The notes below the pieces were generated by a model that saw only the letters and a list, made by a program, of their open reading frames with translations, did no database searches and was not told the origin of the DNA. A stretch of DNA of 64,000 nt from the NCBI GenBank assembly GCA_003599755.1, contig QZJO01000013.1, positions 27,729 through 91,728 on the forward strand. Reading direction: 5' to 3'. Source of the DNA: Candidatus Parcubacteria bacterium. Its GTDB lineage: Bacteria; Patescibacteriota; Minisyncoccia; Sungbacterales; SURF-37. Position 1 is the stretch's first letter. The number at the start of each line of letters is the position of its first letter. Position numbers and translations under genes: made by a program. Shown piece after piece: positions 252 to 47,094 of this stretch.

Positions 252-2162
252 ATGGCCGGACTCGACAAACTCCGCGAAGCAATCTATTCCCGCGATTTCA
301 AGGAGCCGACGCGCTCGCCGGAAGGCGAGCTGCCGCCTGAAGCGCTGCAGGAATCGGCAAAGCCCATACCGCGCTCCTGGACGGAACGCCAGCCGAATGC
401 ATCCGCTCCGCTGGCGGCCGCAACGGGAAAACAGCGTCACTGGATCCGCAACGGCGTGATTATCGGCGTGGCTGCGATTTTAGTCGGCGGCGGCTGGCTC
501 GGGTATACGCTTTTTTTGGCGACCTCTGATGTGGGATTTTCGATCGAAGGGCCGAAAGAAGTTTCGGCCGGCGAACCGACCGTGTATACGATCCGCGTGA
601 CGAACCGTTCGAGCGTACCGCTCACCGAAGTATCCGCGACGCTGACATTTCCGCCCGGCACGATTACGCCCGACAGTATGGAAATTCCGTTTTCGGCCCC
701 GCGCATCCGCGTGCCGATCGGCGACGTTCCGGCGGGCGAACGCACGGAACGGGAAGTCCGGGTGCAGCTCGTAGGCCAGGCCGGCCACATGCATACGATT
801 GCGGGCCTTTTGTTGTACCGGCCGGAAAATATCTCATCACAGCTGACGCGCGAGACCGATATGACCACCACCATCGCGCGCGTACCCATCGCGGTCAGCG
901 TGGACGTACCCGAACGAATCAGCTCCGGCCAGGAGGTGAAGATGATCATTGCCGTGGACTCAGAATTATCAGTCGTGCTGCCGAACATGTCGCTTGGCGT
1001 CGAATTTCCCGCGGGGTTCGTGTTCGATCGCGCGGAACCCGATCCGATCGCGCCGAATAAACCCATTTGGTCGCTCGGAGAGCTCGTCGGCGGCCAATCG
1101 CGCACCATTACGGTCTTCGGGACGCTTGCCGGCGAGCCGGAAGAAGCGAAGCCCTTCCGCATGCGCGTTGGTCAATATGAAGCGGCGAATGATCGGTGGC
1201 TTGCGGTCATTGAGCATACGCAAACGCCATTGATCGCGTCGCCGTTTTTGCTCGCGCAGGCCACGCTTAATGGCGCCCGCGGCGGCGCGCTGCAACCGGG
1301 CACGCGCGTGACCGGTAGCGTATTTTATCGGAATAATTTGCCCGATCGCGTCGAGAATCTTACGGTTTCGGCTTCGTTCCCGGAGAATCTCGTGGATTTG
1401 CGCTCGGTTCGGGCCGAACGCGGCTTTTACGATGTCGGAAAGAAATCGCTGGTTTGGAATCCGAGTTCGGAATCCCGGCTGCGGGAGCTTGCCGCGGGCG
1501 GAGAGGGAACGCTCGCCTTTTCGTTCGAGCTTAAGCAGGCATTGCCGATCAATTCATTTGCAGACAAAAATTTTTTGTTCCCCGTCATCACGCTGATCGA
1601 TACAGCCAATCCGCCGCCGGCGTACCGGGGGATTGAGCTCGGCTCGGAGGACCGGATCGAATACCGGATGGCCTCGGTCCTTGGCCTGATCGGCCGCACG
1701 ACGTATTATGAATCTCCGTTCCCGAACACCGGCCCTCTGCCGCCCAAGGTGCGCGAGACGACTACCTATACGGTATTTTGGGAGCTGACCAGCGGCGGCA
1801 ATGATCTGCGGGATGTAGAGGTGCGCGGCGAACTGGCTGCGGGCGTCGAATGGCGGGATCAGGTGACGAGCGATTTGGGAACCGTTACGTTCAATCCCGC
1901 GACGCACGAAGTCATCTGGCGGATCCGCGATCTGCCGGCCGCAACCGGGGTGCTGCGCGCCCCGATCCGCGCCGCGATCCAGGTTGCCATTGCTCCCGCC
2001 GAGAACCAGATCGGTACCAGTCCGAATCTCTTGCAGAACGTGCGCGCGAGCGGCCGGGACCTTTTTGCCGACGTCACGCAGGACGTAACCGTTCCGAACG
2101 TATCCACGGAATTGAAGAGCGACAGCCAAAGCAAGCAAATCGAATGGCGAGTCGCGCCGTAA
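252..2162 (+). CDS. Large membrane-anchored protein with repeated beta-rich (DUF11/CARDB-like) domains; hypothetical surface protein
   Basis: ATG at 252 (MAGLDKLREAIYS) directly after the upstream stop. Single N-terminal TM helix (IIGVAAILVGGGWLGYTLFLA) followed by about 550 aa of repetitive 'GEPTVYTIRVTNRSSVPLTEV'-type segments. ORF track 81..2162, trimmed to the first plausible ATG. Confidence 0.55.
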   Translation: MAGLDKLREAIYSRDFKEPTRSPEGELPPEALQESAKPIPRSWTERQPNASAPLAAATGKQRHWIRNGVIIGVAAILVGGGWLGYTLFLATSDVGFSIEGPKEVSAGEPTVYTIRVTNRSSVPLTEVSATLTFPPGTITPDSMEIPFSAPRIRVPIGDVPAGERTEREVRVQLVGQAGHMHTIAGLLLYRPENISSQLTRETDMTTTIARVPIAVSVDVPERISSGQEVKMIIAVDSELSVVLPNMSLGVEFPAGFVFDRAEPDPIAPNKPIWSLGELVGGQSRTITVFGTLAGEPEEAKPFRMRVGQYEAANDRWLAVIEHTQTPLIASPFLLAQATLNGARGGALQPGTRVTGSVFYRNNLPDRVENLTVSASFPENLVDLRSVRAERGFYDVGKKSLVWNPSSESRLRELAAGGEGTLAFSFELKQALPINSFADKNFLFPVITLIDTANPPPAYRGIELGSEDRIEYRMASVLGLIGRTTYYESPFPNTGPLPPKVRETTTYTVFWELTSGGNDLRDVEVRGELAAGVEWRDQVTSDLGTVTFNPATHEVIWRIRDLPAATGVLRAPIRAAIQVAIAPAENQIGTSPNLLQNVRASGRDLFADVTQDVTVPNVSTELKSDSQSKQIEWRVAP

Positions 2163-2173
2163 TCAAAACCAGC

Positions 2174-3505
<1,332 letters not shown>

Positions 3506-3520
3506 CCGACGTCCATCCCT

Positions 3521-4792
3521 ATGTTCAAGAAGGTAGCGCTCCCCAACGGTTTACGGATCCTGACCGCACCGATGCAGGGCACCAATACGGTGACCACATT
3601 TGTCATGTGCGGGACCGGCTCGGACCACGAGACCGAACCGCAAAGCGGCATATCGCATTTTTTAGAGCACATGTTTTTCAAAGGCACGACGAAGCGGCCG
3701 AACCACTTGGCGATCACCAAGGAGCTCGACCGCATGGGCTCGGCCTCGAACGCCTTTACGTGGCACGAAACTACGGGATACTACGTGAAGGCCGGCGCCA
3801 TCCATTTTGACCGGGCGATTGATCTTCTGGCCGACATCTACCGGAATTCCCGATTTCCCGAAGAAGAGATGGAAAAGGAAAAGCGGGTGATCATCGAGGA
3901 GCTGCATATGCGGCGGGAAATCCCCACGAGCTATATCTGGCGCCTGTGGGAAAAGACGTTGTACGGCGATTCGCCGGCCGGCCGCGAAGTCGGCGGCACC
4001 GAAGAAACGGTGCAGGCGATTCGGCGTGAGGACTTGGTTAAATACTTCGAAAGTCAGTACGTCGCGCCCAATACCGCAGTCGTAGTTGCGGGCAAAATCG
4101 ACGAGGACGCGGCCGTGCGGCGCGTGGCGGAATTATTCTCCGATATTCGCGCCGGCGCGCCGCATCCGGCGCCCGCGTTTGTGCCGCGGCAGGCCGCACC
4201 CATTCTCATGCCCGAGGCGCGGACGATCGACCAAACGCACACGGTCATCGGTTTCCGGGGGTATGACGCGTTCCATCCGCGGCGCTGGGCCGCCGAGATG
4301 CTCGCGATCGTGCTCGGAGGATCGTGGAGCTCGCGGATGTTCGTGCGCGTGCGCGAGGAGCTCGGGCTCGCGTACACGGTATCGTCGTCGAGTTCGAACT
4401 ATAAGAACCGCGGCTCGTTCGAGACATATGCGGGCGTGAGCCATCACAATCTCGCCAAGGCCATCGAGGCGATCCTGGCCGAATACCGCCGCGTTCGCGA
4501 AGAGCCGATCGCGGCCGAAGAGCTTGCCGATGCACGCGAATTCCTCAAAGGCCGGATGCTTATGGAATGGGAGACCTCCGAGGCGGTCGCGGATCATGCC
4601 GCGGGCGAAGAAATGCTGACCGGCGATCCGTTGACCATCGAGGAAGTATTTGCGAGGATCGATGCAATCAAGCCGGCGGATCTGGCCGACGTTGCCCGAG
4701 ACCTCTTCCGGCCCGACCGCCTCAATGTCGCGATTTTGGGTCCCGAACCGACGTTCGGGGATCCGCAAGCCCTCATCAACCGATTCGCCTGA
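3521..4792 (+). CDS. M16-family zinc peptidase (insulinase-like; HxxEH motif HFLEH)
   Basis: GISHFLEHMFFKGT... is the inverted zinc-binding motif of M16 peptidases. 423 aa. Confidence 0.8.
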   Translation: MFKKVALPNGLRILTAPMQGTNTVTTFVMCGTGSDHETEPQSGISHFLEHMFFKGTTKRPNHLAITKELDRMGSASNAFTWHETTGYYVKAGAIHFDRAIDLLADIYRNSRFPEEEMEKEKRVIIEELHMRREIPTSYIWRLWEKTLYGDSPAGREVGGTEETVQAIRREDLVKYFESQYVAPNTAVVVAGKIDEDAAVRRVAELFSDIRAGAPHPAPAFVPRQAAPILMPEARTIDQTHTVIGFRGYDAFHPRRWAAEMLAIVLGGSWSSRMFVRVREELGLAYTVSSSSSNYKNRGSFETYAGVSHHNLAKAIEAILAEYRRVREEPIAAEELADAREFLKGRMLMEWETSEAVADHAAGEEMLTGDPLTIEEVFARIDAIKPADLADVARDLFRPDRLNVAILGPEPTFGDPQALINRFA

Positions 4793-4795
4793 TTT

Positions 4796-5857
4796 ATGGC
4801 CCTCGAACGCATCTCCTTGGATATCTCGTATACTTCGTATATACGGGCCGTGATCGTCGTCGCGGTTACCGTCGCGCTGGTATATCTGTCGCAAATCATC
4901 GTGGCCCTCTTGTTCGCCATGGTCATCGCGTCGGGCATCGAGCCGGGCGTGCGCTGGTTTGCGCGCTACCGCGTGCCGCGCATTGCCGCGGTGCTCTTGA
5001 TCTACGTCATTGCCATTGCGGTTCTCGGCACCGCGCTCGCGCTGGTTTTGCCGCCGCTGGTCGATGAGTTCACGGCGTTTCTCGATGACTTTCCGCGTTA
5101 CCAGCGGGTCCTCCTCCAGGAGCTGCGCGCGTTTGAGGATCTGCCGTTCTACACGTATTTTTCGGAAAACGCGCAGCAGTTTATTTTGAACCCGCCGTTT
5201 GACCTGCGCACCGTCGGTTCAAGCGCCCTGGATCTTATCGTCGCGTTCTTCGGCGGCATCGGGTCCGCACTGATTCTCCTGGTGGTTTCGTTTTACCTGG
5301 CGAGCCAGGAGCGGGGGATCGAACAATTTCTGCGTCTGGTCACGCCCCTGCGGAGCGAGGAATATGTAATCGGGCTTTGGCAGCGCACGCAAACTAAACT
5401 CGGGCGATGGCTGCGCGGCCAACTCATCCTCGGTCTGATCATCGGCGTGCTCGTCTATTTCACGCTGATCATCCTCGGCGTTCCGTACGCATTCACGCTC
5501 GCGCTGTTGGCCGCGGTGTTGGAATTGGTGCCGATCATCGGCCCGATTCTGGCGGCGATCCCCGCGGTATTTTTCGGATTCCTCGATTCACCGGTCCGCG
5601 GCCTGGTGGTTGCGGCGGCATACGTGCTGATCCAGCAAATCGAGAGCCATTTGTTGGTTCCGCTCGTGATGCGTCAGGCCTTGGGCTTGAATCCGTTGAT
5701 CGTGATCATCGGGCTTTTGGCCGGCGCGAAACTGGGCGGTATCATCGGCATGTTTCTTGCCGTGCCGCTTGCTTCGGTGATTGCCGAATTCCTCGTGGAC
5801 ACGGATCGCAAGCGGCGCGAAGTGCTCGCGGATCCGCGCCTGACCGGCCAGGGATGA
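4796..5857 (+). CDS. AI-2E family transporter (PerM/YdiK-like, UPF0118)
   Basis: Polytopic membrane protein; the LxxxxxExxPxxG-type region 'LLAAVLELVPIIGPILAAIP' is typical of AI-2E permeases. Confidence 0.65.
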   Translation: MALERISLDISYTSYIRAVIVVAVTVALVYLSQIIVALLFAMVIASGIEPGVRWFARYRVPRIAAVLLIYVIAIAVLGTALALVLPPLVDEFTAFLDDFPRYQRVLLQELRAFEDLPFYTYFSENAQQFILNPPFDLRTVGSSALDLIVAFFGGIGSALILLVVSFYLASQERGIEQFLRLVTPLRSEEYVIGLWQRTQTKLGRWLRGQLILGLIIGVLVYFTLIILGVPYAFTLALLAAVLELVPIIGPILAAIPAVFFGFLDSPVRGLVVAAAYVLIQQIESHLLVPLVMRQALGLNPLIVIIGLLAGAKLGGIIGMFLAVPLASVIAEFLVDTDRKRREVLADPRLTGQG

Positions 5858-9463: not shown

Positions 9464-12334
9464 ATGCCGCGGCCGTACGACCCCAAAGCCATTGAAGCGA
9501 AATGGACCAAGCGCTGGCTCAAGGAAAAAACCTATGAGCCGAACTTTTTGCGCGCGAAACGTCCGTTTTACAACTTGATGATGTTTCCGTATCCCTCGGC
9601 CGAAGGCCTGCACATCGGCAGCGTGCGCACGTTTTCGGGCGTGGATATCTACGGGCGGTTCAAACGCATGCAGGGCCACGACGTATTTGAACCGATGGGC
9701 TTGGACGGGTTCGGCATTCATTCCGAAAACTACGCCCTGAAGGTCGGCAAGCATCCGGCGGATTTGGCCAAAGTCACGGCGAAAAATTTCTATCGCCAGC
9801 TTTCCGAGATCGGCAACGGGTTCGCCTGGGACGAGCGCTTGGAAACGTACGACCCGAAGTATTACCGCTGGACGCAATGGATCTTTGTTCAGATGTTCAA
9901 GCGCGGCCTCGCATACCGCAGAAAGCAGGCCGTGAACTGGTGCCCGTCTTGCAAGACCGTGCTTGCCGACGAACAGGTTATTTCGGGCGAATGCGAACGG
10001 TGCGGGACCGCGGTCGTCAAAAAAGACCTCGAACAGTGGTTTTTCAGAATCACCGAGTACGCCGATCGGCTGCTGAAAAACATCGATGCGCTCAACTGGT
10101 CCGAGAAGATAAAAATCGCCCAGAAGAATTGGATCGGCAAATCCGAAGGCGTGGAGATAAAATTTTCGCTGGAAAAAATCCCCGGCCAGAAAGACGGTGC
10201 TCACTCGGTTACGGTGTTTACCACGCGGCCGGATACGCTCTTTGGCGCGACGTTTCTCGTCATTTCGCCCGAGCTTGCTGATCAATGGATGCACGTGGGC
10301 TGGCGCGCGCCCGAGAAGGTGCGCCGCTACGTTGCCGCCGCGTTGAAGCGCCGCATCGGCGAACCCGCGGCAGGCGATCGGGCAAAGACCGGCGTGGATG
10401 CCGGCTTCGTGGCCGTGAATCCGGCGACCGGCGCGCGGATTCCGGTCTGGGTTTCGGATTACGTGCTCGCCGGCTACGGCACGGGCGCGATCATGGCCGT
10501 GCCCGCGCACGACCAGCGGGACTACGAGTTCGCCAAACAATTCGGCTTGGAAATCGTTTCGGTGATCGATCCGGTCACCGGTACGCCTCAGGAGAATCCG
10601 CGCGAGAAGAAAAAAATCGTCGCCTTCGTGGAAGACGGCGACGCGGTCCTGACCGTACAGTGGGGTCCGGAGCTTGGCGGGCGGTTGCTGATCGGCGGGA
10701 CCGTTGAGGACGGCGAGGATCCGGCGGCAACGGCGCGGCGTGAAATCGCCGAAGAAACGGGATATACCGACGTGGAACTTATCGAGCGGGCGCCGGAGAC
10801 CGTGCATCACCGATACTTCGCTCCTTCGAAGGGCATCGCCTTTCACGCCGCGGTAACGGTGCTCCGTTTCCGGTTGAATAACAAGAAACGGAACGCTCAG
10901 AAACTCGAAGAGAATGAACGGGGCAAGTTTGTAGTGGAGTGGGTGCCGAAATCTCAAGCGCTGCGGGAAGTCACTGATCCGCTGCATCGCTATGCGTTGG
11001 CGAAATACGGCGAAGGAATGGTATACGACGGGCCCGGCGTGCTCGCGCGCTCAGGGAAATTCACCGGCATGCCGTCCGAAGAAGCGAAATGGGCTGTTGC
11101 CGAGGCGGTCGGCGGCACGCGGGTGGCGCGCTACCGCCTGCGCGATTGGCTTTTGTCGCGGCAGCGCTATTGGGGCCCGCCAATTCCGATGATCTATTGC
11201 GACGCGTGCGCCAGGGCGAATAAAGGCGAGCGCGCGGACATGCCCGGATGGTATGCGGTACCGGAGCGCGAGCTCCCGGTGAAGCTTCCGCAGGTCAAAG
11301 AATTTCGGCCCACGGGCATAGGCGTATCGCCGCTGGCAAGCGTGCGTTCGTTTTACGAAGCGCGGTGCCCGGCCTGCAACGCGAAGGCCCGGCGCGAGAC
11401 CGACGTATCGGATACGTTTTTGGATTCGGCGTGGTACTTCCTCCGCTATCCGTCGGTGCGCGAAGCGAAACGGCCGTGGCATTCGGCGATCACCAAGAAG
11501 TGGCTGCCGGTGGCGAGCTACATCGGCGGCGCGGAACACGCGGTACTGCATCTGTTGTATGCGCGGTTCCTCACAATGGTGTTCCATGACTGGGGCATGG
11601 TGGATTTCGAAGAACCGTTCGCGACGTTCCGCGCGCACGGCCTGATCACCAAGGACGGGGCGAAGATGTCCAAATCCAAGGGCAACATCGTGAATCCGGA
11701 CGAATATTTCCGGCAATACGGCGCGGATACTATGCGTACGTACCTTGCCTTTTTGGCGCCGCTGGAACAGGGCGGCGACTTTCGCGACGAAGGCATTCGC
11801 GGCATTACCCGATTTTTGGAGCGTGTCTGGAAATTCTACGACGGCGCGCAGTTTTCCGCGCGGTCGGATAATGCGGTCGCGCGCGCCGCGCATCGGGCCG
11901 CCGACAAAGTCGGCCGCGACATCGAGGCGCTGCAATACAACACCGCGATCTCGGCGCTCATGGTATTGTTGAACGAATTCGAAAGGCGCCCGGACGCAGT
12001 GGGCAGGCGCGAAGCCATGCGGTTTCTCCAACTGCTTGCGCCGTTCGCGCCGTTCATTGCGGAAGAATTGTGGGATCGGTTAAGCGGGAAGGGAAGTATT
12101 CACTGCAGCCGTTGGCCCGAAGTCGATCCGCGGTTCCTCAAAGACGAGACGGTCCAGATCGCCGTGCAGATCAACGGCAAAGTGCGCGATCACATTGCGC
12201 TCGCGCCCGATACGGGGGCAGTAGATGCCCGGAAGGCCGCCTTGGCGCTGCCGAAAGTCCGCGAAATGCTCGGCGCCAACGAACCGAAGAAATTCGTCTA
12301 TGTGCCGGGACGCATCATTAATATCGTGATTTAA
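9464..12334 (+). CDS. leuS: Leucine--tRNA ligase carrying an inserted Nudix hydrolase domain
   Basis: MPRPYDPKAIEAKWTKRW..., HIGH-region 'YPSAEGLHIGS', editing-domain TTRPDTLFGATF, 'KMSKSKGN', RLRDWLLSRQRYWGPPIP. 956 aa, about 100-150 aa longer than typical. The extra segment contains a complete Nudix box GGTVEDGEDPAATARREIAEETGY (see findings). Confidence 0.9.
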   Translation: MPRPYDPKAIEAKWTKRWLKEKTYEPNFLRAKRPFYNLMMFPYPSAEGLHIGSVRTFSGVDIYGRFKRMQGHDVFEPMGLDGFGIHSENYALKVGKHPADLAKVTAKNFYRQLSEIGNGFAWDERLETYDPKYYRWTQWIFVQMFKRGLAYRRKQAVNWCPSCKTVLADEQVISGECERCGTAVVKKDLEQWFFRITEYADRLLKNIDALNWSEKIKIAQKNWIGKSEGVEIKFSLEKIPGQKDGAHSVTVFTTRPDTLFGATFLVISPELADQWMHVGWRAPEKVRRYVAAALKRRIGEPAAGDRAKTGVDAGFVAVNPATGARIPVWVSDYVLAGYGTGAIMAVPAHDQRDYEFAKQFGLEIVSVIDPVTGTPQENPREKKKIVAFVEDGDAVLTVQWGPELGGRLLIGGTVEDGEDPAATARREIAEETGYTDVELIERAPETVHHRYFAPSKGIAFHAAVTVLRFRLNNKKRNAQKLEENERGKFVVEWVPKSQALREVTDPLHRYALAKYGEGMVYDGPGVLARSGKFTGMPSEEAKWAVAEAVGGTRVARYRLRDWLLSRQRYWGPPIPMIYCDACARANKGERADMPGWYAVPERELPVKLPQVKEFRPTGIGVSPLASVRSFYEARCPACNAKARRETDVSDTFLDSAWYFLRYPSVREAKRPWHSAITKKWLPVASYIGGAEHAVLHLLYARFLTMVFHDWGMVDFEEPFATFRAHGLITKDGAKMSKSKGNIVNPDEYFRQYGADTMRTYLAFLAPLEQGGDFRDEGIRGITRFLERVWKFYDGAQFSARSDNAVARAAHRAADKVGRDIEALQYNTAISALMVLLNEFERRPDAVGRREAMRFLQLLAPFAPFIAEELWDRLSGKGSIHCSRWPEVDPRFLKDETVQIAVQINGKVRDHIALAPDTGAVDARKAALALPKVREMLGANEPKKFVYVPGRIINIVI

Positions 12335-45398: not shown

Positions 45399-45417
45399 GA
45401 GGCGAAGGGGTCGGCGT

Positions 45418-45792
45418 TCAGGCCGCCTGCTCGAGCTTTCGGAGAAGCTCTTGGGGTGGCGTGGCCGCGCGAATCTGGACCAGATGGGCTGGAAGGATCT
45501 TGTCGAGGCACTTCTTGATGGTGTTCGTCTCGTTGCGCGCGGCATCGCTGCCGCGCAGAAGCTCGGGCGCGTACATCCCGACCATGAAGCCGTTGCCGGC
45601 CTGGCGGAGGGTTATCCACCCCTCCTTGTAGCCGAAACAGACCGCGATGATCGTGAGGATCTGCGGCGACCGGAGCGGGTGCTCTCGATGCGGTTCGATC
45701 AGGCGTGCGCGCCAGTCGCTGGAGAACGACTCTGCCACCGGGGACTCCCGGAGGCACTCCTCGATCTGTCTCAGGATCTCGAGTTTCTTCAT
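45418..45792 (-). CDS. Hypothetical protein (about 124 aa)
   Basis: ORF MKKLEILRQIEECLRESPVAESF…; start taken at the MKKLEIL Met. No recognisable domain. Confidence 0.4.
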   Translation of the reverse strand: MKKLEILRQIEECLRESPVAESFSSDWRARLIEPHREHPLRSPQILTIIAVCFGYKEGWITLRQAGNGFMVGMYAPELLRGSDAARNETNTIKKCLDKILPAHLVQIRAATPPQELLRKLEQAA

Positions 45793-45883
45793 GCCTCCGT
45801 CACCCCCTTCTGTGCACATTTTGCCGCCACATGACGGCTGCTCACACGTAGCGACTAGTATATAGCTCTTTATTGGGGAAAGT

Positions 45884-45916
45884 CAAGAGCGCCGCGCATC
45901 ATGCGCGGCGCTCTTG
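45884..45916. repeat. Perfect 33-bp palindrome CAAGAGCGCCGCGCAT-C-ATGCGCGGCGCTCTTG
   Basis: 16-bp perfect arms around a single central base. Located between the hypothetical gene's upstream region and the tRNA cluster. Hairpin/terminator or operator candidate. Confidence 0.6.
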
Positions 45917-45931
45917 GTTTGCTTCGCTCAG

Positions 45932-45960
45932 TCGGGCTGCTGGGAATCGAACCCAGTCTA
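45932..45960 (-). pseudogene. tRNA 3' piece (variable loop, T-arm CTGGG-TTCGATT-CCCAG, acceptor 3' strand CAGCCCG, discriminator A) lacking any local 5' partner
   Basis: Hand fold. No sequence able to pair with CAGCCCG exists in the 100 nt upstream on the RNA. The only perfect partner (CGGGCTG) is 230 nt away at 46190..46196. Confidence 0.5.
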
Positions 45961-46085
45961 CGAGTTCCAGGGTGTAGTGTTGCGAGCGTATCCGCTGCGC
46001 GGATTCGTTCTCGCAACACCCGCGCAAACCAAAGACCTTTGCTTTGCGCCCCCTCGCCTCGCTTGCCCCGCACCAATTTCGGCAG

Positions 46086-46156
46086 TCGGGGCGCCGGGAA
46101 TCGAACCCGGTCTACAAGACCCCCAGCCTTGTGTACTGCCGTTATACTACGCCCCG
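46086..46156 (-). tRNA. tRNA-Pro (anticodon GGG), 71 nt, CCA not encoded
   Basis: Hand fold: acceptor CGGGGCG/CGCCCCG, D-arm GTAT-AACGGCA-GTAC, anticodon arm CAAGG-CTGGGGG-TCTTG (G37), variable TAGA, T-arm CCGGG-TTCGATT-CCCGG, discriminator A. Confidence 0.75.
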
Positions 46157-46170
46157 AAATTTGGTGCGGG

Positions 46171-46196
46171 GTGTACTGCCGTTATACTACAGCCCG
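46171..46196 (-). pseudogene. tRNA 5' piece (acceptor 5' strand CGGGCTG + complete D-arm, identical to the tRNA-Pro D-arm) with no contiguous anticodon or T-arm
   Basis: A 20-bp exact direct repeat of the tRNA-Pro D-arm region (GTGTACTGCCGTTATACTAC at 46131..46150 and 46171..46190). The acceptor CGGGCTG is perfectly complementary to CAGCCCG at 45932..45938. Confidence 0.5.
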
Positions 46197-46221
46197 TGTA
46201 TGCTGCTTGTGCCCCTCCGAT

Positions 46222-46410
46222 TTATCCGGCCTTTCGGTGCAAGGTCTTCAGGCAGCGCGTGCAGGCCTTCACCCGGCGGCCGGACGCCAAACGTACCCAC
46301 TGGAGGTTGGGGTACTTGCGCTCGGTTTTGGTAAGATTGTAGTGTCCGCGGAGAAGCTTCCGGGTACCGCCAATAATTGAGCTTTTGCCGCAGAGTGGAC
46401 AGGCGCGCAT
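46222..46410 (-). CDS. rpmB: 50S ribosomal protein L28
   Basis: MRACPLCGKSSIIGGTRKLLRGHYNLTKTERKYPNLQWVRL… carries the bL28 K(T)xRxxxPNLQ motif. An alternative start is at 46434. Confidence 0.7.
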   Translation of the reverse strand: MRACPLCGKSSIIGGTRKLLRGHYNLTKTERKYPNLQWVRLASGRRVKACTRCLKTLHRKAG

Positions 46411-46452
46411 GGGATTGGGGCGATAAATACTCATTGGTTGTAGCAGACATTC

Positions 46453-47094
46453 ATGGAAAATGCAATTTCGTTTCTCTTCCCATTGGCAGTGCTGGTATTC
46501 TCCGTGGTGCTCCATGAGGTGTCTCACGGGTATGTCGCCAATGCGCTCGGGGATCCGACCGCCAAGTACGCCGGACGCTTGACGCTGAATCCGATCCCGC
46601 ACATCGATCCGGTAGGCTCCATTCTCGTGCCGTTGGCGTCCTGGTTTTTAGGAGGATTTGTCATCGGCTGGGCAAGGCCCGTGCCGTATGATCCGCGCAA
46701 TATCCGCCTCCGCAATACGGAGTTCGGCGCCGCGCTCATCGGGGCGGCGGGACCGGGCGTTAATATCGCGATCGCGTTGATATTCGGCCTCGTGATTCGG
46801 TTCACGGACTTGTGGCAAAACGCGGTTGGCGCGGCGGCATCGCCCATGCTTGAAATATTCGTGACTATTACGATCGTCAATCTATTCCTCGCGATATTCA
46901 ACCTTATACCGATTCCGCCGCTCGATGGATCAAAGGTTCTGTTCTGGCTATTGCCGGGCGAATGGTGGCAGCTCCGCCAGGCCTTAGAGCAATACGGGTT
47001 TTTCATTCTTCTCTTCTTTATATTTGCCCTATCCAATTGGATCGTGCCGATAGTGCGCGCCATTTTTGGCGCTATTACCGGCATCCCGCTCTGA
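46453..47094 (+). CDS. M50-family (site-2 protease-like) membrane metalloprotease
   Basis: HEVSHG (HExxH) within a TM helix, a second-site LDG motif (IPPLDGSKVL), multiple TM segments. Confidence 0.75.
   Translation: MENAISFLFPLAVLVFSVVLHEVSHGYVANALGDPTAKYAGRLTLNPIPHIDPVGSILVPLASWFLGGFVIGWARPVPYDPRNIRLRNTEFGAALIGAAGPGVNIAIALIFGLVIRFTDLWQNAVGAAASPMLEIFVTITIVNLFLAIFNLIPIPPLDGSKVLFWLLPGEWWQLRQALEQYGFFILLFFIFALSNWIVPIVRAIFGAITGIPL

What the first reader, a model, noticed from the sequence alone, without database searches (positions are those of the whole stretch)
45932..46196. tRNA-Pro(GGG) bracketed by the two halves of a second tRNA whose acceptor strands are perfectly complementary: a split, interrupted or permuted tRNA gene
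On the minus strand the order is as follows.
(i) 46196..46171: CGGGCTG-TA-GTAT-AACGGCA-GTAC-A-C, an acceptor 5' strand plus a complete D-arm that is a 20-bp exact direct repeat of the tRNA-Pro D-arm.
(ii) A 19-nt segment CCCGCACCAAATTTCGGGG.
(iii) An intact tRNA-Pro(GGG) at 46156..46086.
(iv) CTGCC, then CGAAATTGGTGCGGGG, the reverse complement of segment (ii), so these two segments can form a 17-bp helix that loops out tRNA-Pro.
(v) About 100 nt containing nested hairpins (GTTGCGAG…CTCGCAAC enclosing ATCCGC-GCA-GCGGAT).
(vi) 45960..45932: a variable loop, T-arm and acceptor 3' strand CAGCCCG plus discriminator A.
The 5' piece (CGGGCTG) and the 3' piece (CAGCCCG) are perfectly complementary over all 7 acceptor positions. 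Relative to tRNA-Pro (CGGGGCG/CGCCCCG) they differ at two positions, with compensating changes on both strands. That covariation is what a functional acceptor stem joining the two distant halves would produce, and it is hard to get by chance in two unrelated fragments. No canonical anticodon arm can be folded adjacent to either half, so the anticodon region must be built from the intervening or flanking sequence, or be missing. Possible explanations: (a) a tRNA gene with a roughly 230-nt intervening sequence in the anticodon region that happens to contain tRNA-Pro; (b) a paralogous tRNA (Pro-like) disrupted by insertion of a tRNA-Pro-carrying segment bounded by inverted repeats; (c) a split tRNA gene whose halves are brought together by the 17-bp helix (segments ii/iv), formally reminiscent of Nanoarchaeum split tRNAs but in a bacterial genome.
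Basis: seen in the sequence. Interest (0 to 1): 0.85.

Follow-up and report, generated by a model that had tools for sequence, protein, structure and literature searches.

The report
tRNA gene nested inside interrupted tRNA
A complete proline tRNA gene sits inside an older, interrupted proline tRNA gene in this ultra-small bacterium; the older gene belongs to a small, undescribed family carrying a conserved ~75-80-base structured insert exactly where archaeal and eukaryotic tRNA introns sit.

Summary
On the minus strand, an intact tRNA-Pro(GGG) (46156-46086) lies inside the two parts of a second tRNA-Pro-like gene (46196-46172 and 46061-45932).

Relatives show what the outer gene is. It belongs to a small family of Patescibacteria tRNA-Pro(GGG) genes interrupted in the anticodon loop, at about 37/38. 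The insert has a conserved layout: ...GGGG | hairpin P-A | helix P-B (GGG...CCC) | UGG | A.... I found five interrupted genes (window, L011/L089, L125, L007, L099) and one relic (L111).
- L099 has the insert and no nested tRNA.
- L011 and L125 carry an intact tRNA-Pro(GGG) at the tip of P-B.
- The window carries it on a separate helix between nucleotides 26 and 27.

The insert matches no Rfam family. It is too small for a group I intron and does not form a strict bulge-helix-bulge motif.

In the window the outer gene has no U33, a G·A pair in its anticodon stem and two interruptions. I read the inner tRNA as the working gene and the outer one as a remnant. The Nanoarchaeum-like split-tRNA reading is not supported.

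Whether the family's insert is a true, spliced intron is open. Intact exons in L099 and L011, and compensatory changes across the insert, argue for it. No mechanism is known.

The parts
46222..46410 (-). rpmB (ribosomal protein L28), immediately upstream on the same strand; probable source of transcription for the tRNA nest
   Evidence: ORF list. Same gene order with a Pfam L28 hit in relatives L111 and L113. No promoter-like site between it and the nest.
46172..46196 (-). Outer tRNA-Pro-like gene, 5' part: acceptor 5' strand CGGGCTG, TA, D arm GTAT-AACGGCA-GTAC, A26
   Evidence: Sequence. 92% direct repeat of the inner tRNA's 5' end (D2). 88% identical, including 2 upstream nt, to the 5' end of the intact tRNA-Pro(GGG) at the same position in L111.
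46157..46171 (-). Helix H1, 5' strand (CCCCGCACCAAATTT), inserted after nucleotide 26 of the outer gene
   Evidence: Inverted repeat I3. Paired in the minimum-free-energy fold. Unique in the window.
46086..46156 (-). Inner, complete tRNA-Pro(GGG): acceptor CGGGGCG/CGCCCCG, loop CTGGGGG, U8, G18G19, U33, G37 and A73 all present
   Evidence: ARAGORN. Rfam RF00005, 56.3 bits, model positions 1-71 of 71. Anticodon arm identical to that of the single tRNA-Pro(GGG) of relative L113.
46066..46082 (-). Helix H1, 3' strand (CCGAAATTGGTGCGGGG); 46085-46083 (CTG) is an unpaired trailer
46050..46065 (-). Linker CAAG, outer anticodon-stem 5' strand CGAGG (46061-46057), CGA (46056-46054), GGGG (46053-50 = anticodon GGG + G37 equivalent)
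   Evidence: Pairs with 45965-45961 in the fold. Parallels AGTCC-AT-GGGG (L011), CGTGC-AT-GGGG (L099) and CATGC-AT-GGGG (L125, L007). No U33, and G31·A39.
46022..46049 (-). Insert hairpin P-A (GCGCAAAGCAAAGG TC TTTGGTTTGCGC), 11 bp, 4-nt loop
   Evidence: Inverted repeat I5. -13.3 kcal/mol when folded alone. Equivalent hairpins of different sequence at the same place in L099, L011, L125 and the L111 relic.
   Evidence: (I8). 74% identical to the P-B relic of L111, with a G-C to C-G exchange in its base.
45966..45969 (-). TGG (last three insert nucleotides) + A38; the motif CCC-TGGA occurs at every interrupted gene whose 3' boundary is on the contig (window, L099, both copies in L011, L125)
45932..45965 (-). 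Outer gene, 3' part: anticodon-stem 3' strand ACTCG, TAGA, T arm CTGGG-TTCGATT-CCCAG, acceptor 3' strand CAGCCCG, A73
   Evidence: 86% repeat of the inner 3' half (D1). Partial T-arm hits in Rfam. This end and its downstream flank are 76% identical to a displaced tRNA 3' fragment and its flank in L111.
45857..45916 (-). 16-bp perfect palindrome (45916-45884) closing the unit, overlapping a promoter-like site TTGACT-18-TATACT (45886-45857) for the downstream 133-aa gene
   Evidence: (I1). The same TTGACT...TATACT arrangement occurs in L111.

Best explanation
The locus is a 'Russian-doll' tRNA-Pro(GGG) locus.

**The outer gene** descends from a lineage of Patescibacteria tRNA-Pro(GGG) genes with a conserved, structured ~75-80-nt intervening sequence in the anticodon loop. 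Its layout is 5' exon ending ...GGGG, hairpin P-A, helix P-B (GGG...CCC), then UGG, with the 3' exon starting at A38.

**In this genome** a second, complete tRNA-Pro(GGG) has been lodged inside that gene. It sits at the tip of helix H1, between nucleotides 26 and 27.

**How it works (inferred).** The whole unit is transcribed with rpmB. The outer acceptor, D and T stems, H1, P-A and P-B fold independently, so the inner tRNA protrudes as a normal cloverleaf. RNase P and 3'-end processing release it, and it is the working tRNA-Pro(GGG).

**Status of the outer gene (inferred).** It now needs two separate excisions, has no U33 and has a G·A pair in its anticodon stem. It most likely no longer yields a decoding tRNA. 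It is a structurally well-preserved remnant that may still serve as processing or stability scaffold.

**Origin (inferred from comparisons).** Such nests arise when a tRNA-Pro copy lands in a helix tip of an interrupted gene, where it does not disturb folding. They are then reshuffled by homologous recombination and gene conversion between the inner and outer copies.

**Shown:** the anatomy, the homology to other interrupted genes, the nesting in three lineages, and the lesions. **Inferred:** transcription, processing, and non-function of the outer gene.
For: **Anatomy and fold.**

**Family membership.** L099/L101 and L011/L089 were found with the 3'-half pattern. L125 and L007 were found through synteny. 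All share stem-AU-GGGG, P-A, GGG...CCC, UGGA, stem. ARAGORN in intron mode calls L099 as tRNA-Pro(ggg) i(37,75) and L011 as i(37,162). RNAfold gives the same three-way junction in both.

**Nesting recurs.** L011 and L125 carry an intact tRNA-Pro(GGG) at the tip of P-B, and their nests are collinear.

**The inner gene is canonical.** It scores 56.3 bits.

**The outer gene is damaged.**
- After in-silico removal of both inserts, ARAGORN gives 'tRNA-???(aggg)' with an 8-nt loop.
- G31·A39.
- A nested neighbour coincides with outer-gene decay in L125: a U2·C71 mismatch, a T-stem deletion, a 19-nt T-loop insert and a degenerate P-A.
- The closest syntenic relative, L111, has an intact tRNA at the outer gene's position and, downstream, a displaced 3' end plus a degraded P-A/P-B/3'-exon relic.

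**Recombination dynamics.**
- Inner and outer types are swapped between L011 and L125.
- L011's inner gene is a mosaic.
- L011 has a second copy of the insert's 3' part plus a 3' exon.
- L124 has a tRNA with mismatched acceptor halves.

**Not an assembly artefact as a class.** The L099-type gene is identical in five assemblies.

**Transcription.** No promoter-like site lies between rpmB and the nest.
Against: - There are no expression data.
- Apart from the anticodon loop, the outer gene is remarkably intact: acceptor 7/7, D 4/4, T 5/5, and P-A and P-B both very stable. A long-dead gene is not expected to look like this.
- The P-B relic in L111 still shows a compensatory exchange relative to the window. 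The insert module may therefore have a function of its own.
- The window arrangement itself is known from one contig only.
- How a tRNA copy gets inserted with flanking inverted repeats at 26/27 is not explained. No further copy of H1 or the insert was found in the window or in any fetched locus.
Confidence: 0.6

Rival explanations
1. The conserved insert is a genuine intron of a new, non-group-I kind, and the outer gene is still matured. Host enzymes or an unrecognised small ribozyme cut at G37|G and UGG|A38 and the exons are ligated. The nested tRNA is released from the precursor in the same way that archaeal tRNA-Trp introns release a C/D-box RNA. In the window the H1-borne tRNA is removed as well, so one transcript gives two tRNA-Pro species.
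For: - L099 carries the insert with no nested or nearby intact tRNA-Pro. It has flawless exons and all identity elements. Removing G...CCCUGG gives a standard 71-nt tRNA-Pro(GGG) with loop AUGGGGA.
- In L011 the interrupted outer exons are identical over the 36-nt 5' exon to the intact tRNA of L132, and differ at two positions of the 3' exon from that of L126. The nested inner gene has G8 and scores only 41.9 bits.
- The anticodon stem, whose strands are separated by the insert, shows double (compensatory) changes at 4 of 5 pairs among interrupted genes.
- The boundaries GGGG|G and CCCUGG|A are invariant in L099, L011 and L125, and A38 is linked to the insert.
- The insert sequence is conserved between L011 and L125, although I could not align their rpmB-tRNA spacers by eye.
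- P-A keeps pairing through sequence change.
- An A32-U(-3) pair plus a 3-nt bulge GGA resembles the 3' splice site of archaeal and eukaryal pre-tRNAs.
Against: - No bacterial machinery for protein-dependent tRNA splicing is known (review PMC4090602).
- No Rfam intron or ribozyme family matches.
- A strict BHB cannot form in L011, L125 or the window.
- For the window specifically, the spliced product would have an 8-nt loop without U33 and would need a second excision with no recognisable motif.
- No RtcB, EndA or RNA ligase was found among the 30 largest ORFs of the window. This is weak evidence, since the window covers only part of the genome.
- Only five interrupted genes are known.
Confidence: 0.22
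2. The insert is a selfish DNA insertion that targets position 37/38 of tRNA-Pro(GGG) genes and is not spliced. It is perhaps spread by gene conversion after cleavage by the homing-endonuclease-like genes that frequent this locus. Versions that carry their own tRNA-Pro(GGG) compensate for the gene they destroy. The window shows an old, decayed round of this process.
For: - In 3 of the 4 interrupted genes that can be seen whole (window, L011, L125, but not L099; L007 is cut off by the contig end), the interrupted gene is accompanied by an intact copy inside it.
- Distribution among close relatives is patchy. L124, L126 and L132 are intact, while L011, L125 and L007 are interrupted.
- L011's outer exons equal the intact tRNA of its relatives, which suggests recent interruption.
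- Layers are stacked in L011.
- Genes with the homing-endonuclease-associated repeat PF18780 lie between rpmB and tRNA-Pro(GGG) in L012, L116/117 and L126-131.
- Duplicated tRNA 3' ends lie downstream in L111 and L099.
Against: - No transposase, integrase or endonuclease lies in or next to the window's nest.
- No second copy of the insert was found in the window or in any of the fetched loci.
- Inserts are more diverged from each other than the exons are, the opposite of what a recently spreading element would show.
- L099 has the insert without a cargo tRNA, yet its exons are perfect.
- In the window the tRNA is not inside the insert at all.
Confidence: 0.13
3. It is a split tRNA of the Nanoarchaeum type. 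The two halves are brought together by the helix flanking tRNA-Pro and joined at a bulge-helix-bulge motif.
For: The halves have perfectly complementary acceptor strands and a ~13-bp helix between them.
Against: - The pieces are collinear in one 265-nt stretch with no promoter-like site between them.
- No BHB can be drawn at H1 or at the anticodon-loop insert.
- The helix does not abut the anticodon loop. It sits at 26/27.
- In relatives the equivalent helix is simply the P-B stem of the insert.
Confidence: 0.02
4. It is an assembly artefact: a chimeric join of strain variants across the 20-nt repeat.
For: The window's contig is the only record of this exact arrangement. The two genes share an exact 20-mer.
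Against: - An artefact would not create matched inverted repeats around the inner tRNA, nor a collinear outer gene with a family-typical insert.
- Equivalent nests occur in independent assemblies of other organisms: L011 and L089, and L125.
- The insert-only form is identical in five assemblies.
Confidence: 0.03

Closest known systems
[quoted passage not shown]
   Same: An intervening sequence inside the anticodon loop of a bacterial tRNA gene, in the same phylum. It hides the gene from default tRNA finders. The insert ends in G.
   Different: - The core is only ~75-80 nt (L099: 75 nt), against the ~200 nt or more of the smallest group I introns I know of (own knowledge).
- There is no RF00028 or any other Rfam hit at E<=10 or E<=1.
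- The 5' exon ends in G, not U.
- The position is 37/38, the one anticodon-loop position where that survey of 4,934 genomes found no group I intron.
- tRNA-Pro is not among the hosts in that paper's table of 25 Patescibacteria intron-bearing tRNA genes, and its main text never mentions tRNA-Pro.
- No nested tRNA is reported there.
Archaeal/eukaryal protein-spliced tRNA introns (bulge-helix-bulge, canonical position 37/38), including the archaeal tRNA-Trp intron that nests a C/D-box RNA (PMC4090602)
   Same: The canonical 37/38 position. The anticodon can pair with the insert (GGG with CCC). There is an A32-U(-3) pair followed by a 3-nt bulge (G, G, A38) at the 3' boundary. A second functional RNA is housed in the intron.
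   Different: - The host is a bacterium, and such splicing enzymes are not known in bacteria.
- The central helix has a U·C mismatch.
- The inner helix h' is missing in 3 of 4 genes.
- The predicted stable fold is a three-way junction, not a BHB.
- The nested RNA is a whole tRNA of the same specificity.
Split, tri-split and permuted tRNA genes (Nanoarchaeum, Caldivirga, Cyanidioschyzon)
   Same: tRNA parts are separated in the DNA and brought together by complementary sequences.
   Different: Here the parts are collinear and contiguous, in a bacterium, without BHB junctions. The separating DNA is itself a tRNA gene.
tRNA genes as integration sites, with duplicated 3' ends (attL/attR remnants)
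   Same: Relatives show direct repeats of the tRNA 3' end downstream. L111 has 17 nt repeated after 149 nt, and L099 has 15 nt repeated after 87 nt.
   Different: In the window a 5' half is displaced as well. No integrase or island is present. The interrupting DNA is 105 + 83 nt.
Intervening sequences (IVS) of bacterial 23S rRNA, excised without religation
   Same: Helix-shaped inserts in a stable RNA gene. A PF05635 '23S rRNA IVS protein' gene lies 64 nt upstream of the interrupted tRNA in L099.
   Different: A tRNA cut in its anticodon loop and not religated is not expected to decode. No RNase III evidence exists.

Membership tests
tRNA (Rfam RF00005): inner gene | Full-length cloverleaf match above the gathering score, with anticodon loop and conserved nucleotides | tested here: met
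   56.3 bits against a gathering score of 29, model positions 1-71 of 71. ARAGORN calls tRNA-Pro(ggg).
tRNA: outer gene as a functional tRNA | After removal of the intervening sequences: a 7-nt anticodon loop with U33 and a paired 5-bp anticodon stem | tested here: not met
   The in-silico product has the 8-nt loop CGAGGGGA, no U33 and G31·A39. ARAGORN reports 'tRNA-???(aggg)'. The acceptor, D and T stems are perfect.
Interrupted tRNA-Pro(GGG) family defined here (L099, L011/L089, L125, L007) | 5' exon ending GGGG, hairpin P-A starting with G and directly followed by GGG, helix P-B closing with CCC, then UGG-A and the anticodon-stem 3' strand | tested here: met
   Window 46053-45961 has every element. 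The 3'-half pattern matches the window, L011 (twice) and L099.
Group I intron | Conserved catalytic core (P3-P9) detectable by covariance model | tested here: not met
   No RF00028 hit at E<=10 in window 45600-46500, nor at E<=1 in L122, L011, L125, L007 or L111. The L099 insert is only 75 nt. Caveat: PMC13011429 notes that some Patescibacteria group I introns escape RF00028, but those have normal group I length.
Group I intron | U at the last exon position (U·G in P1) and G at the last intron position | tested here: not met
   All admissible 5' boundaries follow a G (GGGG|G). The last insert nucleotide is G (UGG|A).
Archaeal-type BHB intron | Strict helix-bulge-helix-bulge-helix motif: a 4-bp helix flanked by two 3-nt bulges, with outer helices of at least 2 bp on each side. 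The definition of the core is from PMC4090602; the outer-helix criterion is from my own knowledge. | tested here: not met
   The central helix has 3 of 4 pairs in all genes. The inner helix has 2 bp in L099 only, and is absent in L011, L125 and the window. In the window the loop has an extra nucleotide, so the helices are out of register.
Archaeal-type BHB intron | Presence of a splicing endonuclease (EndA) and RtcB-type ligase in the genome | tested here: inconclusive
   None among the 30 largest ORFs of the 64-kb window. The rest of the genome is not available.
Split tRNA (Nanoarchaeum type) | Halves encoded and transcribed separately, and joined at a BHB formed by complementary leader and trailer | tested here: not met
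   The pieces are collinear within 265 nt with no promoter-like site between them, and no BHB at H1.
Integrative element at a tRNA gene | Direct repeats of the tRNA 3' part flanking an element that encodes an integrase | tested here: not met
   No integrase-like ORF lies within 45400-46450. A 5' half is duplicated too. The L089 neighbourhood also lacks one.

The most novel reading that the evidence does not exclude
The ~75-80-nt P-A/P-B element is a new class of bacterial tRNA intron. It sits at the canonical 37/38 position and is removed by something other than group I self-splicing, either host endonuclease plus ligase or a very small unrecognised ribozyme. It can host a second tRNA gene in its apical helix, so a single precursor yields two tRNAs. 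Nests such as the one in this window are stages in the turnover of that system.
Probability: 0.3. Interest if true: 0.9.

Novelty: new variant of a known kind. Interest (0 to 1): 0.72.

Why it matters
- **No precedent found.** Bacterial tRNA genes are thought to be interrupted only by self-splicing group I introns, and very rarely by group II introns. This locus and its relatives show another kind of interruption: a small, structurally conserved insert at the position typical of archaeal and eukaryotic tRNA introns. They also show an arrangement for which I found no precedent, a complete tRNA gene nested inside another tRNA gene of the same specificity.
- **If the insert is spliced,** a non-group-I tRNA splicing pathway exists in bacteria. 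That bears on the origin of tRNA introns and on the biology of ultra-small symbiotic bacteria.
- **If it is not spliced,** the locus is a clear example of gene replacement from within, and of how recombination between nested paralogs builds and dismantles layered genes.
- **Practical consequence.** Default tRNA finders miss the interrupted genes. ARAGORN found no tRNA in L099. This affects tRNA-based completeness estimates for these genomes.

Tried and rejected
**Known RNA families.** No group I/II intron, self-cleaving ribozyme, tmRNA or riboswitch matched in the window region at E<=10 or in five related loci at E<=1.

**tmRNA reading.** Rejected. The acceptor has no G3·U70, ARAGORN finds no tmRNA, and only T-arm fragments hit the tmRNA models.

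**Multi-copy mobile element (MITE-like).**
- The H1 sequence is unique in the window.
- blastn with the inserts found no further copies in the window or any locus.
- A motif scan found no further GGGG-hairpin-GGG...CCCWGGR modules.

**Phage or integrative-element origin.** Two scans of viral contigs gave either nothing or chance hits. No integrase lies nearby.

**Strict BHB.** Tested and not met.

**attC-like, REP-like or terminator readings of P-A.** Considered from the sequence and dropped. There are no conserved core sites and no U tract.

**Searches that gave nothing useful.**
- Relatives of the L099 neighbour gene returned only the same organism.
- L112 is cut by the contig end just where the tRNA locus would be.
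- L007 is cut inside the insert.
- A Pfam scan of the 30 largest window ORFs found no RtcB, EndA or RNA ligase.
- Literature searches for nested tRNA genes, bacterial protein-spliced tRNA introns and RtcB in Patescibacteria found nothing relevant.

**ARAGORN artefacts.** Its intron-mode calls in L027, L043, L048, L070 and L111 join neighbouring tRNAs. L070 was checked.
Full report
**1. What is in the window**

Everything below is on the minus strand.

- rpmB ends at 46222.
- At 46196 a tRNA-like 5' part begins: CGGGCTG-TA-GTAT-AACGGCA-GTAC-A, ending at 46172.
- A 15-nt strand follows (46171-46157).
- Next is a complete tRNA-Pro(GGG) at 46156-46086. ARAGORN calls it. Rfam scores it at 56.3 bits over the full model.
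- After 3 unpaired nucleotides comes the complementary strand (46082-46066).
- Then come CAAG, CGAGG, CGA and GGGG (46065-46050).
- A hairpin I call P-A lies at 46049-46022.
- A long helix I call P-B lies at 46021-45970. It starts with GGG and ends with CCC.
- Then come TGG-A (45969-45966) and ACTCG-TAGA-CTGGG-TTCGATT-CCCAG-CAGCCCG-A (45965-45932).

The repeat finder confirms that the two outer pieces are 92% and 86% copies of the inner tRNA's ends, and it confirms the inverted repeats. The 265 nt fold with the outer acceptor, D and T stems closed around everything else. Energy is -133.9 kcal/mol, z = -6.7, and no shuffle does as well.

One correction matters. The outer gene does have an anticodon stem: CGAGG at 46061-46057 pairs with ACTCG at 45965-45961. 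That stem is separated from the D arm by the helix-borne inner tRNA, and its two strands are separated by P-A and P-B.

**2. Organism and neighbourhood**

The adjacent site-2 protease has its best relatives in Parcubacteria/Patescibacteria genomes assembled from metagenomes, at 66% identity or less. Its own record is named Candidatus Parcubacteria bacterium.

The gene order is NUDIX, DksA-type zinc finger, a 133-137-aa gene, [tRNA locus], rpmB, protease, rpsL, rpsG, fusA. Relatives L111, L113 and L120 share it. Many relatives have a single ordinary tRNA-Pro(GGG) after rpmB. No promoter-like site lies between rpmB and the nest, so co-transcription with rpmB is likely. This is an inference.

**3. 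The outer gene belongs to a family of interrupted tRNA-Pro(GGG) genes**

Locus L011 is a metagenome-assembled genome (MAG) labelled Saccharibacteria whose closest protease relatives are Ryanbacteria-like. The same sequence occurs in a JGI contig, L089. It shows the same kind of nest.

I scanned the metagenome collection for the pattern CCCTGGA-N14/15-TTYRAWT-N5-CNNCCCGA. Chance expectation in the window is 0.00. The scan returned L089 and a third organism, L099/L101. Synteny searches added L125 and the truncated L007.

All of them read as follows: anticodon-stem 5' strand, AU, GGGG, hairpin P-A (starts with G, 11-12 bp, 4-nt loop), immediately GGG...(P-B)...CCC, UGG, A, anticodon-stem 3' strand.

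- With its intron option, ARAGORN calls L099 as tRNA-Pro(ggg) with a 75-nt intron at 37, and L011 with a 162-nt intron at 37.
- Removing G...CCCUGG gives ordinary 71-nt tRNA-Pro(GGG) sequences with the loop AUGGGGA.
- RNAfold predicts the same three-way junction in both. The order is anticodon stem, single-stranded AUGGGG, P-A, P-B, single-stranded UGGA.
- L099 has no nested tRNA and no other tRNA within 11 kb.
- The identical L099 gene is present in five separate assemblies, so the class is not an assembly artefact.
- In L011 and L125 an intact tRNA-Pro(GGG) sits at the tip of P-B. Its acceptor stem is continued by a long helix.

**4. Evidence on function of the interrupted genes**

Among the interrupted genes, the anticodon stem shows double, pairing-preserving changes at 4 of 5 pairs. 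Its two strands lie on either side of the insert. The T stem shows such changes at 3 of 5 pairs. P-A keeps pairing although its sequence differs.

L099 has no lesion at all. In L011 the interrupted outer exons match the intact tRNA of its relatives. The 36-nt 5' exon is identical to that of L132, and the 3' exon differs at two positions from that of L126. Meanwhile L011's nested inner gene has G8 and scores only 41.9 bits.

Where a pristine inner gene exists, the outer gene is damaged.
- L125 has a U2·C71 mismatch, a one-base deletion in the T stem, a 19-nt insert in the T loop and a degenerate P-A.
- The window has no U33, a G31·A39 pair and an 8-nt loop after in-silico splicing.

This pattern is what one expects if the interrupted gene can still produce a tRNA, meaning the insert is removed, and selection relaxes only when a second copy is present. 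It does not prove it.

**5. What the insert is not**

- No Rfam family (group I or II introns, self-cleaving ribozymes, riboswitches) matches at permissive thresholds.
- At 75 nt it is far below the size of any group I intron I know of. Every admissible 5' boundary follows G rather than U.
- The recent survey of Patescibacteria tRNA introns lists Asn, Asp, Met, Phe, Tyr and Thr hosts in its table of Patescibacteria genes. Its main text never mentions tRNA-Pro. It found introns at every anticodon-loop position except 37/38 (PMC13011429).
- The 3' boundary resembles an archaeal or eukaryal splice site, with an A32-U(-3) pair and a 3-nt bulge G-G-A38. A strict bulge-helix-bulge, as defined in PMC4090602, cannot form in L011, L125 or the window.
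- No splicing endonuclease, RtcB or RNA ligase is among the 30 largest ORFs of the window. This says little about the whole genome.

**6. How the nests change**

- L111 is the closest syntenic relative. It has an intact tRNA-Pro(GGG) exactly where the window has the outer 5' part (88% identity including the upstream flank).
- 149 nt downstream, L111 has a 17-nt repeat of that tRNA's 3' end. The flank of this repeat is homologous to the window's flank after the outer 3' end.
- Further downstream, L111 has a degraded P-A, a P-B that is 74% identical to the window's, and a relic 3' exon ending in CAGCCCGA.
- L011 and L125 are collinear nests, but their types are swapped. L125's inner gene is almost identical to L011's outer exons, and L125's outer gene is of the type of L011's inner gene.
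- L011's inner gene is a mosaic of the two types.
- In L011, a second copy of the insert's 3' part plus another 3' exon follows the first. This indicates three layers with the outermost 5' part lost.
- L124 is the closest relative of L011. It has one uninterrupted tRNA whose acceptor halves do not match.
- L099 also has a second copy of its 3' end, 87 nt downstream.

Unequal recombination and gene conversion between the similar inner and outer halves explain all of this without a dedicated mobility function.

The locus is also a landing place for selfish genes.
- Genes with the homing-endonuclease-associated repeat PF18780 lie between rpmB and the tRNA in L012, L116/117 and L126-131.
- A PF05635 gene lies next to the tRNA in L099, and next to the protease in L002, L003, L005 and L054.
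- An antitoxin gene (MazE family) and an adjacent small ORF with no Pfam match lie there in L132.

**7. Interpretation for the window**

The inner tRNA is canonical, and its anticodon arm is identical to that of the single tRNA-Pro(GGG) of relative L113. I take it as the working gene. It would be released from an rpmB-tRNA transcript by RNase P and 3'-end processing. This is inferred; its 3' trailer has 6 unpaired nucleotides in the fold.

The outer gene is a member of the interrupted family that has acquired a second interruption and a defective anticodon loop. Most likely it is a remnant (confidence 0.6 for this whole picture).

The main rival is that the family's insert is a real intron and the outer gene is still matured. 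It has good support at the family level and poor support for this particular copy. The split-tRNA and artefact readings are rejected.

**8. Novelty**

Searches of the paper library found no description of a tRNA gene nested in a tRNA gene, nor of protein-spliced or other small tRNA introns in bacteria. I rate this as a new variant of a known kind (disrupted tRNA genes). There is a 0.3 chance that it marks a new class of bacterial tRNA intron.

The sample is small: five interrupted genes and one relic. All mechanistic steps are inferred. Section the next steps lists the experiments and scans that would settle it.

Noticed in passing
L126 470-1258 (+); L116 918-1733 (+); L012 about 3037-3795; also L127-L131 and L117: Genes with the Pfam 'homing endonuclease associated repeat' (PF18780) are inserted between rpmB and tRNA-Pro(GGG), on the opposite strand, in two separate Patescibacteria clades. 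The locus looks like a hotspot for selfish genes. Whether these proteins cut tRNA-Pro DNA is unknown.
   Followed up: partly
L099 155-511 (+), 64 nt upstream of the interrupted tRNA; homologs in L002, L003, L005 and L054 at about 4570-4900, just upstream of the protease gene: A '23S rRNA intervening-sequence protein' family gene (PF05635) lies next to the interrupted tRNA-Pro in L099, and in the same neighbourhood in four other genomes that have no tRNA-Pro there. A link between this protein family and intervening sequences in stable RNA genes is suggestive but untested.
   Followed up: partly
L125 about 1895-1877 (minus strand), inside the T loop of the outer tRNA: A 19-nt insert (CCCACCAAAGGCGGGCAGG) splits the T loop TTC|GATT of the outer tRNA-Pro gene. 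It is either a third small interruption or simple decay.
   Followed up: no
L124 53-123 (-): A single uninterrupted tRNA-Pro(GGG) whose acceptor strands do not match (CGGGGTA against CGGCCCG: two mismatches and one G·U). It looks like a recombinant between two tRNA-Pro types.
   Followed up: partly
L111 2007-1936 and 1838-1759 (minus strand): Each copy of the tRNA 3' end is followed by a hairpin and then by an antisense copy of the T-arm/acceptor sequence (for example GGGCCGCGTTGGAATCGAA). The tRNA 3' end can therefore pair with downstream RNA. The unit is repeated twice. Its function is unknown.
   Followed up: partly
L099 795-808 (same in L101, L121-L123): A second copy of the tRNA 3' end (TTCCCGACAGCCCGA) lies 87 nt downstream of the interrupted tRNA, preceded by a GC hairpin. 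One base before it varies (C or A) between assemblies.
   Followed up: no
window 1397-1486 (+): ARAGORN reports a 90-nt 'tRNA-Val(tac)' here. Rfam finds no tRNA even at E<=1, and it lies inside a 693-aa ORF (81-2162). It is probably a false positive.
   Followed up: yes
window 1850-3505 (+): A 551-aa class II aminoacyl-tRNA synthetase (core domain of the Gly/His/Pro/Ser/Thr group plus HGTP anticodon-binding domain). If it is ProRS, it would be the enzyme that charges the tRNAs discussed here. Specificity was not determined.
   Followed up: no
window 9464-12334 (+): The leucyl-tRNA synthetase ORF carries a NUDIX domain hit (residues 386-513), inserted after the editing domain. This is an unusual domain combination.
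   Followed up: no
L098 1307-1381 (-): Within a dense tRNA cluster on a 2-kb metagenome contig, a tRNA-Pro(TGG) matched the search pattern because its anticodon loop reads CCTGGAA, with C at position 33 instead of U.
   Followed up: no
L089 1600-1810 (minus strand), downstream of the nest: About 200 nt of degenerate short repeats (GGTTACGGGGTCTG and variants) follow the last tRNA 3' exon.
   Followed up: no
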